Shown: positions 1 through 6,620 of the stretch, piece after piece
How the letters are laid out: the number at the start of each line of letters is the position of its first letter
Position numbering within the stretch: position 1 is the stretch's first letter
Assembly: GCA_010015585.1 (NCBI GenBank)
Contig: ML975150.1
Length of the DNA: 64,000 nt
From: Eremomyces bilateralis CBS 781.70
Lineage: Eukaryota
Strand: one strand, 5' to 3'
Program-made: the position numbers and the translations under genes
Notes under the pieces: model-generated
What the model was told of the DNA's origin: nothing
The model's database searches: none
The model's input: the letters and a program-made list of their open reading frames with translations, nothing else

Positions 1-2293
1 AAGAATGGCCACTGCTTCCAACCCCCAATCTTTGATGTCCTGTACCGTACCTTTGCCAATATTGTGTGGAATCACGGGGAACGGAGTGTCTCCGTCTATT
101 GGTGCCATGGTGGGTATGCCTCCCGTTGTGAGACATTTAGGTCCGTGTGATGGTCCGATTCGGGAGCCAGCGCCTCAGTCTTGGATGATCGGCGTAACCA
201 AGTCCATGCTAAAGCCGCCAATACTATAATTCGAAGAATAATGAACAACAATGCATGTCACACCTAACCCGACAGAACGGTCCAAGTGTTGCTCACAGCG
301 CAACGATATCCCAACCTGATCGCTCGAGGTGGTGCAGCATCTTGCTTGCGAGGGCACCTTCCCCGCATTCGATGCTGTCTTGGTCATTAAGAGACGTATT
401 ATACGTCGAACACAGCTCAGCCGAAATGCAAATAATGGGAAACTGCATCGGATTTCATGGATGAATATGTAAGTGGTTACCGGCAGCCAACGCAGCCATC
501 GAGGCCGATGTACGTTGCCGTGTCTCCATGCAGATTGTCCCGTCTTCTTCGCCCAGGGATAACCTGGAGACCGGATCCGCCTGCATGACATCGACCCAGA
601 CCATCGACCCAACAGTCGGTACACAGCAAGTGAGATGACCGGATTTGCTGTACGGACGTACAGTATGCAATGATCGACGATTGGAGATCCGATCTCTGAG
701 CAAAGACGAAGATTATTGGAATCACTGGGACGAGCCGTCGCCGGCAGCGAATAACCGCCTTCTCCAGCTCTGGAGTCCCTGGTATTTGGAATGATTGTCG
801 TCTAGGTTGGATTCCAACCGAGTGGGATCTTTCGTGAACTAAAGAAGTGAGCTGTCACATTTTGGACGTCAAGCGGACAGCCGATGCATGACACCCAATC
901 GGGTATGCTCCATTTCGTTGGATATCAGCCTCGTCTCCAAATTCCGGTTATGTGGATGGCCCATGGGACGCCACCTCCCACAACCTCAACATGGTGTGTA
1001 TTGTACCCCATTATCCCGGATCATCCTAGTACTGGCTGAGAACAGATGAACACCTCAATCGAACCCGAAGATGCTTCTCTACGATCTTCCCTGCATCTCC
1101 CTTGTGCACCTGTGCGTCTCCGGAAGAAGAAATCGGAGATGCTGGGTCGGTGGAACTATCGCTGGCGGGTATCGACAGTTTCTCCGCCGTGAGATACATG
1201 ATGGTATTCTCGAAAAGTGTCCGATTCGTTCAGGAGATGTGTCGTTGCATTTACCGTTTACATAAGATCGTCGTAGGCCACCTTTTGGCTCAATGGACCC
1301 TGGCGTGGCTGATCTGTTCCCGCAACCAATCCCTCATCTGATCCACAACGATCATCGTGGCGTTGGGCTGCCTGTCACACTGGCACAGAACCATAGCCTC
1401 TTCCGCTGTACATCCAATCTCTTCTGTGTACAGCCCTGGATATATCTACTCCACTTCGACCGACGGCGCCGCGTCGATCCGATCTGGAGATAATACATGC
1501 AAGCCCTGATAATACCGGCGTATCCACGGTTCTGGATGGAGGTTCGCTTGCGCCCAACCCGTCTAGGACATCATGGCCCCTCGAGGGTTCCTCCAGACAG
1601 GAAGCCGGTGACAATAGGTGGCTGCTATTCCCTTTGATATATTTGATATACCTCGCCTTGGCGCTTCCAGAGACCCTGTATCATTGGGGGTAGAAACGCC
1701 AGTTTGGTAAGCTGCTGCAGTCTTCATCAGTTTGGGAAGGATGCTACGCACTTGATGGTCAGACAAAGTGGATTGCTGGATGAGTCGTGATCCTGGTGGC
1801 GAGACTCTTCTTGCCATGTTCGATTTCCTCTATCGCTTGCCCGCCGGTATCGTGCCTCAGTATGAAAGGTTCAAAAGGAGGGAGGTCGTCGACCTTTCCT
1901 TCAAGCCATCCATTCGCTCAAAGTCCAAAAGTAAAGTTCTTCTTCTTGTTTACTACTACCCAAGTCTCCATAAGCCCAGGTATCCTTAGTACCCTTGATG
2001 TTCACCACGATATTGATACATATATAATCCAATTCCCCAGCATCTTGAGACAACCATCTATCAAGAACCACTCCCTTCGCGATCCAGCATCCGACCCATA
2101 TTCTCGCAGGAAAACCACCCTCCTACTCGTGTTGCTTCAGAAAGCGCGTTTTTACTGAACCGCATCTCCACGACTGGTAAGTGAGCAAGATCAGAGTTCA
2201 GGATCCTGGTCCGACGGCTCGAGTCCAGTTCAGCCTCTGACATCGCATCAGTACCAACAACCCACCCGCAACATCTCACCCCATCTTGGCAAC

Positions 2294-3013
2294 ATGGCCT
2301 ACGTCTCCCACCGCAGCTTCGTCCACGAGCGCCTCTACGGTATCGACAAAGGCTGCGCATCCGAATGGCGTTCCTCCGCCCCCCGACCTATGAAGCGGGA
2401 ACCCAGCTTCCGCAGCACCGATAAACGCGCCGCACACAACGGCAGCCTCCAGAACATCATCGAGCCCGTCCCCGTTCCCGCCACCGCGCCCGCCACCGCT
2501 CCCCCAATCTTCCGCAACGGCCATCACCCGCTCCCGCCCTCCGCCGGTCTCGCTGCCGGCCCACTGGACCTCCACATCGTCGAGCAGCCCAAAGGGATCC
2601 TCCGCGCGGGCCCGCTGTCCGGCGACAAGTTCTCCTTCCGCGTCTCCATTCGTCTACTCCCGACTTCCCCGGCGAACTACATCGACCTCTCCACGCTGTT
2701 CGCGGTGATCACGCTGGTGGGAATGAGCAACACTGGCGTCGAGCGGCCAGTGCCCGCGGGCGCGCTGACGGGTCCGCGGCCGGGGACGCCGCTGGCGACG
2801 TCAGTGTCTTTGGAGAATCCGGCGGGGTTGGGGAGGGAGGTCATGGGTGGGTCGGTAATGGAGGGACATGTCCAGTTTGAGGATCTAGTGATCTCGGCGG
2901 AGGGGATTTTTCGGATTCGTGTGACATTATTGCAGATGGTTGGGGGCGGCGTTCGGGGCGGAAGGGTTTTGCAGACCGTGGAGAGCGACATGATCATGGT
3001 GGAGGAATTGTAA
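2294..3013 (+). CDS. Small divergent velvet-like domain protein (239 aa, intronless)
   Basis: LDLHIVEQP...HVQFEDLVISAEGIFRIRVTLLQM...LQTVESDMIMV echoes the velvet fold hallmarks (L.v.QQP; F.DLSVR.EG.yRL.f.L; v.S..f.V). Codon usage is coding-like. Confidence 0.65.
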   Translation: MAYVSHRSFVHERLYGIDKGCASEWRSSAPRPMKREPSFRSTDKRAAHNGSLQNIIEPVPVPATAPATAPPIFRNGHHPLPPSAGLAAGPLDLHIVEQPKGILRAGPLSGDKFSFRVSIRLLPTSPANYIDLSTLFAVITLVGMSNTGVERPVPAGALTGPRPGTPLATSVSLENPAGLGREVMGGSVMEGHVQFEDLVISAEGIFRIRVTLLQMVGGGVRGGRVLQTVESDMIMVEEL

Positions 3014-3478: not shown

Positions 3479-3600
3479 GTGAAGCATTTTCTCTCCCACA
3501 TAAGGCACTGTATCTCTACTAATCTACTATGAAGCAATTTAACTGCTCCATGAAGCATTATATCTCCACTGTAAAGCAATGTAACTCCTTCATGAACCAT
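3479..3600. repeat. Degenerate 21-nt minisatellite, about 5.5 units
   Basis: Units start at 3479, 3500, 3529, 3550, 3571 and 3592, e.g. atgaagcaatttaactgctcc / atgaagcattatatctccact / gtaaagcaatgtaactccttc. Confidence 0.6.
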
Positions 3601-3684: not shown

Positions 3685-6339
3685 CTACCCATCATTCTCA
3701 ACACTCTCAACACCCCCATCGTCATGATCATGAGCATGATCATGGACAGAAGCTAACCCAACCGAGGCCGGGTCAATGTAACGGCACGTCAACGCGAACC
3801 TCAGATTCCCGGTCGGCTTCACCTGGTGCTCGAAGTACTTCTGGATCTCCTCCCCGGCCATGATCACGATGTCGCCGTGTGCCAGATGCATGCTCACCGC
3901 ATCTGGGGCAACTCCGGTCTTCTTCAATTTCAACTCCTTGGGGAGCTCCGCCATGCGTGCCCGACGCTGTGCCGGGTCGGGGATGGTGTTCAGCTGTTCA
4001 TGTGCCTCTTTACGAATAGCATGGTCACGGCAGCCTGGCAGCGGAGCGGCGTCGACATAACACCCGTTCTTTGAAGAACCATTGTAGTACTTGGCTTTCA
4101 TTCTAAGGGTCATTATGGCGGGTTGCCCGATGCTGAGGGTAGCAATGACGGGCCCAAGGCCGGTTTCGCCGTCGTCATGATACTGGAGACAGGGTCAGCG
4201 ACGTTGGAGATGTACTATAGCAGACAGGAAACTTACCTTGATCATCTGCTTCTCAAAATACCCAAGTGCAAGGACTTCGTTGAACTCAACGTGCATGCCA
4301 GGAGCAAATTCGGATGTGACTCTCTTTGAAATCCTGTCCATCAAAGAACGAGCAGTACTAATAACAGGGTCTGCATCCTCAATAGGCTTGCTGTCGACCA
4401 TGGCCACATAATTGTACTGGACCCCAAAATTTGCAGCAAAGTGATTCGTGAGGAATCCGCCACGGATGATTGCGCTCTTCATCAGGCGACGACGCAAGCC
4501 GATGTCGACGTTCTGAAGACGATCCCACATGTAGTCTGCCCCACCGGGAACCGCATTCATGGACTTATTCGCGAGAATATGAACGATGCATCCTTTGGCA
4601 CCAGGGATGGTGAAGACATTGGTGCGGCATCCTTCAATGTTCTGCACTCGGTGCTGCATTCCATCGAAACTATGATTGAGGAGATCCCTGTTGAAAGCAA
4701 ATCCATCGGAGATAGGATGCTGGAGGTCCTGGAGGGCAGCAAGGGGAAGGGGAGTTGCTGGAATTGTGTACTTCGCACCACAGTTTGGATTACTGCAAAC
4801 CCAGGCCAACCAATGTTCGCGAGAATTGCAGGAGCCACAGTGCGGGCATACAATTCCACGCCAGGCTTCCCATGACACACCTTGTCCCTGGATGCGGCCC
4901 AGTTCAACAGGCATAGGTGACGGGGCAAGCGAATGAGGCTCCCCATCTGTCTCCCAATGGGTCTTCTGCTTCAAGAACCGCGGGTCAAAGTTGAGATTGT
5001 CGTTTGGTTCCTGCCCGTTCAAGAGCCAGAAGTTTTGGCAGATCTCATTGCCATCATTCAAGCACATCCACCCCTGAAGGTAGATCTGTGGAGACGACCT
5101 CTGGCACTCCGAACAGGTTCGCACAATTGGGGTTGGCAAGCTACCCAGCGGAGCAGGATTGGTAACACCTTGAGGTGCCCACCAACTAACATCCTCCACG
5201 ACGATGCGCTCGAAGCGGAACCTGAACACCCGCTTTCCCCCAATCTTTTCAGACCACACGTGAGTTGGCTTAAACCAGCCAAGCACATTGTAGGGGTGCG
5301 GCATCTTGGACGGGGAGTTCACATTACGTTCTCCACAAATGATAACCACTGCATTCTCGAACTGGGTGTTATTCCGCAGCGCTTGGATGACGCCAGTGAC
5401 AGGCTGGTCATGCTCTCTAGTCATGGCGTCGTCGAACTTTTCTTTGGTAAGTCCTCCACCAGCAGTCGCAATAATGACGTCCGCATCCATGAATTCTCGC
5501 GCTCGAGGGCCAGATGCTAGGTCAAAGGTACAAGAATGTGAAATACCGTTCAACGTGTAAGCACAGGACTGGTAATTCCTCGCGTACAAAAGTGTTTCAC
5601 ACATGGCTTGGCGGCGCTGAGCCCAAACCGGTGGCTCTCCAACGGGATCTGGCTTCGCTTTTGCGTTGGTGATTTGCTGAAGTCGCTCCGAAATGAGTGC
5701 ATAGTCCTGCAGAGACCCATTTCGGCTGAGAACTTCATCCGTATCCATTGACACAGTATTTTCCGCCGTGGTAACCCCTCCACCTGCAACTGGGATTGAG
5801 TTCGGAGTTGCGGTGGGAATAAGCGGGTTCGTCACAATGGCTCCATAGGCGAAATCGGTTGGAGCCTGAGGAGGGGCGGCCAAAGTCCGTGACTCGACAC
5901 CACCCAGAAGCTTTGTGGTACTTTGAGCGGGAGAGACAGAGCTCTGGAAGCTGACCGTTGTCGCCTGAGTCGGGCTGTCAGACATATGCTGAGAATCCGA
6001 TTGCTGAGACGGCACGTAGCTCGATTCTTGAGAGAGTGCTGGCGGAGAAGAGCTGATTGCGGCTGCATAGAAAGTTCCAACATCGGGGCCTTGAGTAGCT
6101 GCCACTGGATCCTCTAGAACATCGAGCCCAGAATCCTTGCGCTTCTTTGTCGCAGGATCGCCGGCATCTTCGTCCGCAATACGCTTGCGCCCAGCTTGAT
6201 CAGCGGGGGCGGGGATGGCAGCATCATGGATAGGAGAGTTGGAATGATTGCGGAGGCTACGGCGACCAGGATGAGCGGCGATGATGCCGTTCACCCCAGC
6301 TGTGGCAACGCCGAGACCTCGAAGCTCCCTCAAAGACAT
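3685..6339 (-). CDS. SRA/SAD-like + Cys-cluster + AlkB-type 2OG-Fe(II) dioxygenase fusion protein
   Basis: ORFs 4195..6348 and 3685..4113 are joined by intron 4183..4236 (GTAAGT..GCTGAC..CAG), giving KQMIK|YHDDGE (HxD). Downstream are L.HGD..IM.G..Q..FEH.V (distal His) and RFALTCR (2OG-binding Arg pair). First ATG is at 6339; upstream exons are not excluded. Confidence 0.85.
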
Positions 6340-6620
6340 TATGGGCAATTAACGCTGAATGACTTGGTGAAAGTCTTGGTGAAAGACTTGGTGTAAGTAG
6401 GGGCAGTAAATCTGCGGAGATTTTTGAAACGAGAATTCCAGAAAAGCAATGACTGATGAGTTGAATCTCTAGTAGCAGCGGATCTGGTTGGCAGTCCCAC
6501 TGGGGTCAGAAGGGGGTGGATCGAGACGTCACTATGCCATTCCCGGTCAGTATACAGCCATTAATGCATGAGAACAGGTCAATACATACATAAAGCAACA
6601 CTGTTCGACAGTATTGCTAG

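What the first reader, a model, noticed from the sequence alone, without database searches (positions are those of the whole stretch)
3685..6339. SRA/SAD-like reader + Cys clusters + AlkB dioxygenase: candidate modified-base reader/eraser
Seen: residues at about 5205-5580 (ATAGGG..DQPVT..QAL.N..AVVIICG..YNVLGWFKPTHVWSEK..VFRFRFER) align by eye to the SRA core (YTGSGG..DQ.LT..RAL..PVRVVR..RYDG.YKV..YW.EK..VWRY.L.R). Two Cys clusters follow (CSEC..C..C; CPHCGSC..CSNPNC), then an intact HxD..H..RxxxxxR AlkB centre whose HxD is only restored by intron 4183..4236. The tail is His/Asp-rich (HDHAHDHDD). Known: SRA domains flip and bind 5mC/5hmC, and AlkB/TET enzymes oxidise methylated bases. As I recall, fungal SRA-AlkB fusions were predicted computationally, but I know of no established substrate. 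The YDG signature is changed to VLG, suggesting a different ligand. Inference: an uncharacterised fungal epigenetic or repair enzyme that couples base reading to oxidation. This is the best candidate for a poorly described system in the window.
Basis: partly seen in the sequence, partly recalled or inferred. Interest (0 to 1): 0.75.

Follow-up and report, generated by a model that had tools for sequence, protein, structure and literature searches.

The report
Fungal SRA-AlkB dioxygenase fusion gene
This is a real two-exon fungal gene that joins an unusual modified-DNA-reader-like domain and two zinc-binding clusters to an AlkB-type oxidative demethylase; the fusion family has already been predicted in print, but its substrate has never been measured.

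Summary
On the minus strand, 6339..4237 and 4182..3685 are joined by a canonical 54-nt intron. The encoded protein is 100% identical to an annotated Eremomyces bilateralis protein.

An AlphaFold model of the N-terminal part has an SRA fold. It matches SUVH5 SRA at Z 12.1, rmsd 2.3 A over 133 of 148 residues, and the 13 best structural matches are all SRA-like. Sequence also finds SUVH5 SRA (E 6.5e-5 single sequence, 2.9e-6 profile).

The domain is divergent. Pfam SAD_SRA scores below its cut-off, YDG reads VLG, and the 5mC-stacking Tyr428 position holds small residues. Nine Cys in two clusters are invariant in 62 of 62 relatives.

The AlkB part passes Pfam's cut-off and keeps HxD..H and RxxxxxR. 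The His/Asp tail comes from a lineage-specific hexanucleotide repeat.

The architecture is not new. Iyer, Zhang and Aravind (2016) describe a 'divergent SAD(SRA)' plus zinc ribbon fused to AlkB in fungi. They list SNOG_03244, a family member (41% identical over 57% of the query), and suggest m6A demethylation.

I found no experimental substrate. My best guess (0.4) is a nuclear DNA N-alkyl-base demethylase.

The parts
3685..6339 (-). Whole coding region in its longest form: 866 codons plus stop, two exons
   Evidence: The ATG at 6339 is the first ATG after an in-frame TAA.
5749..6339 (-). N-terminal low-complexity extension (197 codons) that is absent from the annotated model, which starts at 5748
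   Evidence: 0 stops in this frame against 4 and 4 in the other two frames; GC 0.572 against 0.473 upstream. Homologs have N-terminal regions of 79 to 407 aa. BLAST against two homolog N-termini was not significant.
6136..6189 (-). Bipartite-NLS-like basic motif RKR-x11-KKRK (aa 51-68 of the long form)
   Evidence: By a crude regex, 18 of 23 homologs with an N-terminal region of 60 aa or more carry a basic cluster. It was not tested with an NLS predictor.
5173..5637 (-). Divergent SAD/SRA-fold domain (P0003 residues 38-192)
   Evidence: AF2 model residues 22-176 match SUVH5 SRA at Z 12.1, rmsd 2.3 A, 133 of 148 residues. Foldseek matches SUVH5 at E 1.2e-6, TM 0.70 by target. phmmer gives E 6.5e-5. 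Pfam SAD_SRA scores 22 bits, below its 30.7 cut-off.
5038..5115 (-). Cys cluster 1 (C212, C215, C229, C237 of P0003), a putative zinc ribbon
   Evidence: All four Cys are invariant in 62 of 62 family members. There is no significant Pfam match. The Iyer 2016 supplement notes a zinc ribbon after the SAD domain.
4780..4848 (-). Cys cluster 2 (C301, C304, C307, C318, C323), a putative zinc ribbon
   Evidence: All five Cys are invariant in 62 of 62 members. The only structural leads to zinc ribbons are weak: Zn_ribbon_NUD at TM 0.24 and eL43/L37Ae at E about 1.
3772..4620 (-). AlkB-type Fe(II)/2-oxoglutarate dioxygenase domain (P0003 about 377-641), interrupted by the intron
   Evidence: Pfam PF13532 scores 51.4 bits against a 31.2 cut-off. 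The Atlas model of residues 377-641 superposes on a 193-aa 2OG-FeII_Oxy_2 cluster at TM 0.84 by target. The profile hits ALKBH3 at E 3.6e-5.
4183..4236 (-). Intron: 54 nt, GTAAGT..CTGAC..CAG, with an in-frame TGA
   Evidence: The junction is identical in the annotated protein P0003 and is gapless against 30 homologs.
4171..4179 (-). HxD iron ligands (H506, D508). E510 follows at 4167..4165.
   Evidence: Conservation across the family: H 50/52, D 51/52, E 50/51.
3826..3828 (-). Distal iron-ligand His (H623)
   Evidence: Conserved in 46 of 49 members.
3781..3801 (-). R-x5-R motif (R632..R638, RFALTCR)
   Evidence: R632 is conserved in 46/47 and R638 in 46/46 members.
3688..3744 (-). His/Asp-rich C-terminal tail, encoded by short tandem repeats
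   Evidence: TRF finds 3722-3744 as period 6 x3.8 copies and 3696-3713 as period 9 x2 copies. The tail is not conserved in the 30 homologs of A1, which carry P.YEV.PD.G.YDG at this position.

Best explanation
The gene encodes a member of the fungal 'SAD(SRA) + zinc ribbon + AlkB' family that is already described computationally.

Shown here:
- It is a spliced, conserved gene.
- The model of its N-terminal domain has an SRA fold with a remodelled pocket.
- Two invariant Cys clusters are present.
- The AlkB domain keeps its iron and 2-oxoglutarate ligands, so it is probably an active dioxygenase.

Inferred: the long form carries an NLS-like motif. Every characterised SRA-fold domain that matched the model binds duplex DNA, most by flipping a base out. 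From this I infer a nuclear, DNA-directed oxidative demethylase. The SRA-like domain and zinc ribbons would clamp DNA and open or sense a modified site. The AlkB domain would hydroxylate an N-methyl or N-alkyl group, which then leaves as an aldehyde.

One flipped base cannot sit in the SRA pocket and the AlkB active site at once. The two modules must therefore act on different bases (opposite strand or neighbour) or hand the base over.

Most likely substrate class, by inference only: N-alkylated bases of the 1mA/3mC type in DNA, rather than 5mC.

Probabilities: family identity and architecture about 0.9; active dioxygenase on nucleic-acid bases about 0.75; the N-alkyl DNA repair or demethylation reading about 0.4. 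The overall figure given is the last of these.
For: Gene and splice.

SRA fold:
- The AF2 model has mean pLDDT 82.4 and pTM 0.84.
- Foldseek gives 56 PDB matches at E<=1e-3, led by TagI, SUVH5, SUVH6, UHRF1/Np95, UHRF2, KRYPTONITE and SUVH9.
- VIA against 48,161 chains gives 13 with Z>=5, all from SRA-like proteins or entries that contain one.
- In the second look, 61 of 998 chains reach Z>=8.

SRA sequence: SUVH5 SRA at E 6.5e-5 and 2.9e-6 with the profile.

AlkB:
- PF13532 is found in 31 of 31 members.
- The ligands are conserved: H506 50/52, D508 51/52, H623 46/49, R632 46/47, R638 46/46, Y497 52/52.
- The best solved relative is ALKBH3, and the HxDxE acid is retained (E510 aligns with the Glu of ALKBH3 'HSDDE').

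Family and literature: 799 representatives match the SRA+Cys module at E<=1e-3. SNOG_03244 (P0113) is a homolog at E 1.8e-78 and is listed as SAD+AlkB in the supplement of PMC4738411.

Against a canonical 5mC reader: SUVH5 Tyr428 aligns with A94 (family T23/S14/A13 of 61) in both alignments. The pocket roles come from PMC4740795.
Against: - There is no biochemical or genetic data for any member in the papers I could search.
- The Pfam SAD_SRA score is below its gathering cut-off for this protein. Only 9 of 31 homologs match at E<=0.01.
- The pocket mapping rests on sequence alignments that disagree by one residue around Asp418 (R84 by phmmer, D/E85 by profile). The first stacking Tyr falls in a loop with an insertion unique to this protein.
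- Two Asn of ALKBH3 align with hydrophobic or small residues here: L495 (L/I/V/F) and A634. From memory, these Asn contact 2-oxoglutarate, so cofactor binding may differ.
- The similarity to ALKBH3 is weak (E 3.6e-5, 56 profile positions). The authors of the fusion prediction favoured m6A.
- The N-terminal extension and its NLS-like motif are not in the annotated model and have no RNA support here.
- I could not model the AlkB half myself.
Confidence: 0.4

Rival explanations
1. It is an m6A (DNA or RNA) demethylase. The divergent SRA-like domain would read N6-methyladenine instead of 5mC and direct the AlkB domain to erase it. This is the published prediction.
For: [quoted passage not shown] The loss of the Tyr428-equivalent and of YDG is compatible with a different base. 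AlkB-family m6A erasers exist, for example Dmt1 in Mucor according to the review PMC13297926.
Against: No residue-level argument for adenine could be derived here. The family is abundant in Pezizomycotina, where, from memory, DNA 6mA levels are low. The nearest solved AlkB relative is the repair-type ALKBH3, and the HxDxE acid is kept. From memory, this acid is not a feature of ALKBH5 or FTO.
Confidence: 0.22
2. It is a 5mC reader/eraser. The SRA-like domain would bind 5mC or 5hmC as in UHRF1 and SUVH5, and the AlkB domain would oxidise 5mC in a TET-like manner.
For: The SRA fold matches 5mC-binding SRA domains at Z 12-13. The GGG and DQ motifs and a possibly conserved acid (D/E85, 44 of 61) are retained.
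Against: The Tyr428-equivalent is a small residue. The Tyr416-equivalent is not conserved. YDG is replaced. Pfam SAD_SRA is below threshold. The family occurs in Aspergillus, a genus that, from memory, has little or no detectable 5mC. There was no TET/JBP family match among the Pfam hits.
Confidence: 0.08
3. It is an RNA-directed enzyme that demethylates tRNA, mRNA or rRNA. The SRA-like PUA-type barrel and the zinc ribbons would bind RNA.
For: PUA-like barrels include RNA binders, and the authors leave RNA open (PMC4738411). From memory, ALKBH3 also acts on RNA. Zinc ribbons are common in RNA-binding proteins. One JGI homolog carries the automatic name 'predicted RNA-binding Zn-ribbon protein' (P0101).
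Against: All structural neighbours with Z>=5 are DNA-binding SRA-like domains. The NLS-like motif fits a nuclear role, but that does not exclude RNA.
Confidence: 0.12
4. It is a non-enzymatic or non-base-flipping protein. The SRA-like domain would be only a structural or DNA-clamp module with a dead pocket, or the AlkB domain would act on a protein or have lost 2OG turnover.
For: Pocket aromatics are lost. Two ALKBH3 Asn positions are replaced by L and A. There is an insertion of about 55 residues in the jelly-roll relative to ALKBH3.
Against: The iron ligands, both Arg, Tyr497 and Thr636 are nearly invariant across 46-52 diverse members. This argues for selection on catalysis. A Gln (Q60, 56 of 62) sits in the loop that corresponds to the base-replacing thumb loop of SUVH5, within about 2 residues (inference).
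Confidence: 0.08

Closest known systems
Fungal 'SAD fused AlkB' group of Iyer, Tahiliani, Rao & Aravind 2009 and Iyer, Zhang & Aravind 2016 (e.g. SNOG_03244, AN3951.2, AFUA_5G07420, CHGG_06386)
   Same: It has the same architecture: divergent SAD/SRA, zinc ribbon, then AlkB. SNOG_03244 is a direct homolog (P0113: E 1.8e-78 and 41% identity; E 2.4e-235 with the family profile). [quoted passage not shown]
   Different: Nothing essential differs. This copy has a lineage-specific His/Asp repeat tail, a 2-residue insertion in the SRA pocket loop (P81, R82, present in 1 of 62 members) and a probably mis-annotated start. I resolve two Cys clusters where the supplement speaks of one zinc ribbon.
SRA domains of SUVH5, UHRF1/Np95 and UHRF2 (5mC/5hmC readers)
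   Same: The fold matches: Z 12.1-12.9, and rmsd 2.1-2.3 A for SUVH5 at 25-26% identity. The GGG and DQ motifs, the PV.VI strand and the W.E / R.R.E strands are shared.
   Different: The Tyr428-equivalent is T/S/A and the Thr429-equivalent is mostly Arg (47 of 61). The Tyr416 position is not conserved. YDG reads VL(G/D). The Pfam score is below its cut-off. The domain is fused to a dioxygenase instead of SET or RING modules.
Human ALKBH3 (and, from memory, E. coli AlkB and ALKBH2): 1mA/3mC repair dioxygenases
   Same: It keeps the HxD..H triad, R-x5-R, the Tyr of N-x-Y, Thr of R-x-N-x-T-x-R and the acid of HxDxE. ALKBH3 is the best solved relative by profile (E 3.6e-5).
   Different: There is an insertion of about 55 residues between the 'RMK' strand and 'LxHGD' (profile 685-753 against ALKBH3 172-186). 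Two Asn are replaced by L495 and A634. There is a large N-terminal reader module. The Iyer supplement treats the SAD-fused group as its own minor clade.
Bacterial modification-dependent (type IV) restriction enzymes with SRA-like domains (TagI, MspJI, AspBHI, LpnPI, ScoMcrA, SauUSI)
   Same: They follow the same logic: an SRA-like reader fused to a DNA-acting catalytic domain. TagI is the top structural match (Z 13.5-13.6).
   Different: Their effector is a nuclease, not a dioxygenase. They are prokaryotic, and sequence identity is 4-15%.
TET/JBP dioxygenases
   Same: They work alike only in the broad sense. Both are Fe(II)/2OG enzymes that oxidise a methyl group on a DNA base, sometimes with a DNA-reading module attached.
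   Different: They are a different dioxygenase family. No TET/JBP match appeared in Pfam, and no evidence for 5mC oxidation was found here.

Membership tests
SAD/SRA domain (Pfam PF02182; PROSITE YDG) | Scores above the curated Pfam gathering cut-off | tested here: not met
   It scores 22.1-22.4 bits against a 30.7 cut-off, E 1.2e-4. Nine of 31 homologs match at E<=0.01, the best at 4.1e-9. UniRef nevertheless names the identical protein 'YDG domain-containing'.
SAD/SRA domain | SRA fold | tested here: met
   The AF2 model has pLDDT 82.4. It matches SUVH5 at Z 12.1, rmsd 2.3 A, 133 of 148 residues, Np95 at Z 12.7 and TagI at Z 13.5. Foldseek gives E 1.2e-6 and TM 0.70 by target. This is a model, not a solved structure.
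SAD/SRA domain | Two aromatic residues that sandwich the flipped 5mC, plus an acid on its Watson-Crick edge (SUVH5 Tyr416, Tyr428, Asp418; PMC4740795) | tested here: not met
   Tyr428 aligns with A94 (family T23/S14/A13) in both alignments. Tyr416 aligns with R82, an insertion found in 1 of 62 members. Asp418 aligns with R84 (phmmer) or D/E85 (profile), so the acid is ambiguous.
SAD/SRA domain | YDG signature | tested here: not met
   SUVH5 YVYDG aligns with YNVLG here. The family reads Y-(N/C)-V-L-(D/G).
SAD/SRA domain | Thumb-loop residue that replaces the flipped base (SUVH5 Gln392) | tested here: inconclusive
   Q60 (56 of 62), followed by S/G and G, lies in the alpha1-beta2 loop of the model. 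The register against SUVH5 is known only to about 2 residues, from the aligned ranges. phmmer of the N-terminal half found no PDB match.
SAD/SRA domain | Binds modified DNA by base flipping | not testable with these tools
   This needs binding assays or a co-structure.
AlkB family (Pfam PF13532, 2OG-FeII_Oxy_2) | Scores above the curated Pfam cut-off | tested here: met
   The spliced protein P0003 scores 51.4 bits against 31.2. The read-through of the window scores 41 bits. All 31 of 31 homologs match.
AlkB family | HxD...H iron triad | tested here: met
   H506, D508 and H623 are conserved 50/52, 51/52 and 46/49 in the family. They align to the ALKBH3 motif.
AlkB family | R-x5-R and the other 2-oxoglutarate contacts | tested here: inconclusive
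   R632, R638, Y497 and T636 are conserved. However, the ALKBH3 Asn in 'CNLY' and 'RVNLTFR' align with L495 and A634. Their role in 2OG binding is recalled, not checked; paper searches found nothing.
AlkB family | Double-stranded beta-helix fold | tested here: met
   In the Atlas's own model of this protein, residues 377-641 superpose on a 193-aa PF13532 cluster at TM 0.84 by target, with 191 residues aligned.
AlkB family | Oxidative dealkylation activity | not testable with these tools
   This needs an enzyme assay.
Fungal SAD+ZnR+AlkB group (Iyer et al.) | Architecture of SAD/SRA, then zinc ribbon, then AlkB in one fungal polypeptide | tested here: met
   compared with the supplement text.
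Fungal SAD+ZnR+AlkB group (Iyer et al.) | Full-length homology to a listed member | tested here: met
   SNOG_03244 (P0113) scores E 1.8e-78 and E 2.4e-235 with the family profile. That entry's own gene model covers only 52-57% of the query.
ALKBH3 clade | Groups specifically with ALKBH3 rather than with other AlkB clades | tested here: inconclusive
   ALKBH3 was the only solved AlkB-family protein that the profile matched at E<=10. The match is weak and no tree was built. The Iyer supplement lists the SAD-fused group as a separate minor clade.

The most novel reading that the evidence does not exclude
The remodelled SRA pocket has lost its aromatic cage and gained conserved Arg84 and Arg95 around the base-binding site. 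It may read a DNA base modification that has not yet been recognised in Pezizomycotina, with the fused AlkB domain erasing that same mark on the partner strand or a neighbouring base. The protein would then be a self-contained reader-eraser that defines a new fungal DNA mark, rather than a repair enzyme.
Probability: 0.1. Interest if true: 0.8.

Novelty: already known. Interest (0 to 1): 0.35.

Why it matters
Fungi of the Pezizomycotina have no established active DNA demethylase. This family has at least 799 representatives at 50% clustering and has stood as an untested prediction since 2009/2016. Knowing its substrate would show one of two things: either these fungi erase a DNA or RNA methyl mark, or they have built a repair enzyme around a reader fold that elsewhere recognises 5mC. 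It gives structural-model confirmation of the SRA fold. It gives a residue-level account of what is lost and kept in the pocket and in the AlkB centre. It also gives a corrected gene model. Together these make design of the binding and activity assays straightforward. It is not a new kind of system.

Tried and rejected
- Phyletic correlation with DIM-2, RID, DNMT5 or 6mA methylases: no genome is held for this window and the genome collections are prokaryotic. This was not done.
Only the SRA+Cys model was made. For the AlkB half I relied on the Atlas's own model.
- Naming the Cys clusters: Pfam on residues 195-335 gave only insignificant hits (Integrase_Zn at E 0.022, the zinc-ribbon families at E 0.8-5). 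The Atlas structural hits were weak (TM 0.24-0.35). 'Zinc ribbon' therefore rests on the Cys pattern, its invariance and the literature note.
- Sequence support for the N-terminal half of the SRA domain: phmmer of 71 aa found nothing in the PDB.
- Sequence support for the N-terminal extension: BLAST against P0010 and P0008 was not significant. A by-eye likeness of the first 9 residues to P0010 is not evidence.
- Exon 2 alone against the PDB found only a chance bromodomain hit at E about 1.
- A link to the F. graminearum 'ALKBH2' (FGRRES_09872, 933 aa, induced at ascospore formation; PMC10826363): I could not show that this gene belongs to the family. Its Pfam E-value of 1e-29 is much stronger than any member here, so I make no claim.
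- Experimental work on listed members: a search for AFUA_5G07420, AN3951 and CHGG_06386 returned one unrelated transcriptome paper by its listing and two false hits.
- Neighbouring ORFs (five tested) have no Pfam family.
- Earlier scan notes: none exist.
Full report
GENE MODEL

The finding lies on the minus strand.
- The frame is open from 6348 to 4195 and from 4194 to 3685.
- Translating 6339..4237 gives 701 residues ending ...FEKQMIK.
- Translating 4182..3685 gives YHDDGE... and 165 residues before TAG.
- The 54 bases between them, 4236..4183, read GTAAGT...CTGAC...CAG and contain an in-frame TGA.

A database protein of 669 residues (P0003) is 100% identical and uses exactly this junction. 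It is annotated in Eremomyces bilateralis CBS 781.70 as a hypothetical protein, and UniRef names it 'YDG domain-containing protein'. Thirty homologs align across the junction without a gap.

One point needs correcting. The HxD motif lies entirely in exon 2. Splicing joins it in frame to the first half of the AlkB fold; it does not rebuild the motif.

The annotated model starts at 5748 (Met198 of the long frame).
- The 197 codons upstream have no stop, against 4 and 4 in the other frames.
- They are more GC-rich (0.572) than the sequence upstream of 6339 (0.473).
- They begin at the first ATG after an in-frame TAA.
- They contain RKR-x11-KKRK at residues 51-68.

Homologs have long, poorly conserved N-terminal regions. 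By a crude pattern, 18 of the 23 with 60 or more residues there carry a basic cluster. BLAST against two homolog N-termini was not significant, and RNA evidence could not be obtained.

THE N-TERMINAL DOMAIN IS AN SRA FOLD

Sequence evidence:
- Pfam SAD_SRA matches residues 280-379 of the long form (window 5502..5203) at E 1.4e-4. The score of 22 bits is below the 30.7-bit cut-off.
- Among 31 family members, 9 match SAD_SRA at E<=0.01, the best at 4.1e-9.
- A profile of 31 members finds the SUVH5 SRA domain at E 2.9e-6.

Structure evidence comes from an AlphaFold2 model of window 5700..4720 (327 residues), built with 30 homologs. It has mean pLDDT 82.4 and pTM 0.84.
- Foldseek against the PDB gives 56 matches at E<=0.001. 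They are led by TagI, SUVH5 (E 1.2e-6, TM 0.70 by target), SUVH6, UHRF1/Np95, UHRF2, KRYPTONITE and SUVH9.
- An independent all-against-representatives search of 48,161 chains gives 13 chains with Z>=5. All are SRA-like proteins or entries containing one: TagI 13.5, Np95 12.7, SUVH5 12.1, then KRYPTONITE, SUVH6, SUVH9, ScoMcrA, AspBHI, LpnPI, SauUSI and MspJI. The SUVH5 match has rmsd 2.3 A, 133 of 148 residues and 25% identity, over model residues 22-176. The next unrelated row is at Z 4.5.
- A second look at Foldseek's best 998 chains gives 61 with Z>=8.

The domain spans about 5637..5173.

THE POCKET IS NOT THE CANONICAL 5mC POCKET

In SUVH5 the flipped base stacks between Tyr416 and Tyr428. 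Asp418 binds its Watson-Crick edge, and Gln392 of the thumb loop fills the gap left in the duplex (PMC4740795, passages).

I aligned 62 family members: P0003 plus 61 of the 150 representatives listed, picked by hand across the list. Conservation in that set is as follows:

| SUVH5 residue | Position here | Family pattern |
|---|---|---|
| Tyr428 | A94 (both alignments) | T23 / S14 / A13 of 61 |
| Thr429 | T95 | Arg in 47 of 61 |
| Tyr416 | R82 (phmmer) | part of a two-residue insertion found only in this protein (1 of 62) |
| Asp418 | R84 (phmmer) or D/E85 (profile) | R84 56 of 61; D/E85 44 of 61 |
| YVYDG | YNVLG | Y-(N/C)-V-L-(D/G) |

Several features are kept: GGG (G98 in 62 of 62), DQ (D114 in 49 of 62, Q115 in 43 of 62), W165, R178, E180 and W189. 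A Gln (Q60, 56 of 62) followed by S/G and G also sits in the loop between helix 1 and strand 2 of the model. That is where SUVH5 has Gln392-Ser393-Gly394, but the register is known only to about two residues. This fits a domain that may still open DNA but holds something other than 5mC in a different way. It does not say what that is.

CYS CLUSTERS

Nine cysteines are invariant in 62 of 62 members:
- C212, C215, C229 and C237, at window 5115..5038.
- C301, C304, C307, C318 and C323, at window 4848..4780.

The patterns are CxxC...C...C and CxxCxxC...CxxxxC. Pfam gives nothing significant for this stretch. Structural leads to zinc ribbons are weak. The high pTM of the model suggests that these parts pack on the SRA domain. 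Calling them zinc ribbons rests on the pattern, the invariance and the literature note below.

AlkB DOMAIN

- PF13532 scores 51.4 bits on the spliced protein against a 31.2-bit cut-off, and matches 31 of 31 members.
- In the Atlas's own model of this protein (pTM 0.80), residues 377-641 superpose on a 193-residue PF13532 cluster at TM 0.84 by target.
- ALKBH3 was the only solved AlkB-family protein that the family profile matched (E 3.6e-5).
- The catalytic residues are close to invariant among members that cover them: H506 50/52, D508 51/52, E510 50/51, H623 46/49, R632 46/47, R638 46/46, Y497 52/52 and T636 46/46.

There are two differences from ALKBH3. First, the family has about 55 extra residues between the 'RMK' strand and 'LxHGD' (profile 685-753 against ALKBH3 172-186). 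Second, the Asn of ALKBH3 'CNLY' and 'RVNLTFR' align with L495 (L/I/V/F) and A634 (A43, G3, S1). That these Asn contact 2-oxoglutarate is my recollection; two paper searches for it found nothing.

THE TAIL

HDHAHDHDD is encoded by a period-6 repeat at 3722-3744 (3.8 copies), next to a period-9 repeat at 3696-3713. The 30 homologs in A1 carry a conserved P.YEV.PD.G.YDG stretch there instead. The tail is a lineage-specific repeat product, not a family feature.

THE FAMILY

- The first search gave 127 proteins at E<=0.001 among 4,508 candidates. The named ones were almost all Dothideomycetes, plus Candelariales lichen fungi.
- An exhaustive search with the SRA+Cys module found 799 representatives at E<=0.001, 501 at <=1e-10 and 193 at <=1e-30.
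- Of ten distant representatives looked up, eight carry organism names. They come from Xylariales, Eurotiales, Onygenales and lichen-forming fungi (Vezdaea, Gyalolechia); that assignment of the named genera is from my own knowledge. Two have no organism.
- A profile search listed further members, including Phyllosticta, Venturia, Malbranchea and Emydomyces.

WHAT IS IN PRINT

Iyer, Zhang and Aravind (Bioessays 2016, PMC4738411; I read passages of the text and of supplementary file 1, and could not see the figures) write as follows. [quoted passage not shown] The proteins might be m6A demethylases.

[quoted passage not shown] Its members include SNOG_03244, AN3951.2, AFUA_5G07420 and CHGG_06386. 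SNOG_03244 is my P0113, a homolog of the window's protein. The original paper (Cell Cycle 2009, PMC2995806) is not held.

I found no experimental characterisation:
- 'SRA domain' + AlkB + fungi returned 4 papers. I read passages of one, a 2026 review that names only Dmt1 and CcTet as characterised fungal demethylases; the other three I judged from the search listing only.
- 'SAD SRA' + AlkB + fused returned 0.
- The Pfam names of both domains together returned 0.
- The locus tags returned nothing relevant.
- A broad search listed nothing on this family among its first 15 of 139.

The library lacks most subscription journals.

MECHANISM

Shown: a conserved, spliced gene; an SRA-fold model with an altered pocket; invariant Cys clusters; and a conserved AlkB catalytic centre.

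Inferred: nuclear location, DNA as the nucleic acid (because all strong structural neighbours are DNA-binding SRA-like domains), and catalytic competence.

One flipped base cannot occupy both the SRA pocket and the AlkB active site. The modules must therefore act on different bases or pass the base on.

For the substrate I favour N-alkyl bases of the 1mA/3mC type in DNA (0.4). The reasons are that the nearest solved relative is ALKBH3, the HxDxE acid is kept, and the pocket has lost what defines 5mC reading. m6A erasure, the printed prediction, comes second (0.22). RNA (0.12), 5mC (0.08) and a non-catalytic or non-flipping role (0.08) follow. None of these is tested.

VERDICT

Interest is moderate: this is an old, still untested prediction, made easier to test by the residue-level map given here.

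Noticed in passing
window 5748 vs 6339: The public gene model (P0003) starts at Met198 of a frame that stays open for another 197 codons up to an ATG at 6339. The extra part contains an NLS-like RKR-x11-KKRK motif. The annotated start is probably too far downstream.
   Followed up: partly
window 3696-3744: The His/Asp-rich C-terminus is encoded by a period-6 repeat (3.8 copies) and a period-9 repeat (2 copies). Here it replaces a C-terminal P.YEV.PD.G.YDG stretch that is conserved in homologs.
   Followed up: yes
window 6363-6398: There are three tandem copies of a 12-mer (CTTGGTGAAAGT on the + strand). They start 24 bases upstream of the ATG at 6339, in the presumed 5' leader or promoter.
   Followed up: no
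window 3529-3596: There are 3.2 imperfect copies of a 21-mer (65% matches) about 90 to 155 bases downstream of the stop codon, in the presumed 3' UTR.
   Followed up: no
P0003 residues about 534-603 (window about 4095..3886): The family has an insertion of about 55 residues in the AlkB jelly-roll relative to ALKBH3. It contains a conserved P..PGC motif. Its role is unknown.
   Followed up: partly
P0285 and P0138 (homologs, not in the window): Two long homolog models (1416 and 1373 aa) carry eIF-5A domains after the AlkB domain. This is probably a merge with a neighbouring gene. P0276 carries a fungal Zn2Cys6 domain upstream.
   Followed up: partly
window 2159-3013 (+): A 284-codon open frame converges on the 3' end of the gene. 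It has no Pfam family at E<=0.01, and neither do four other ORFs within 12 kb.
   Followed up: partly
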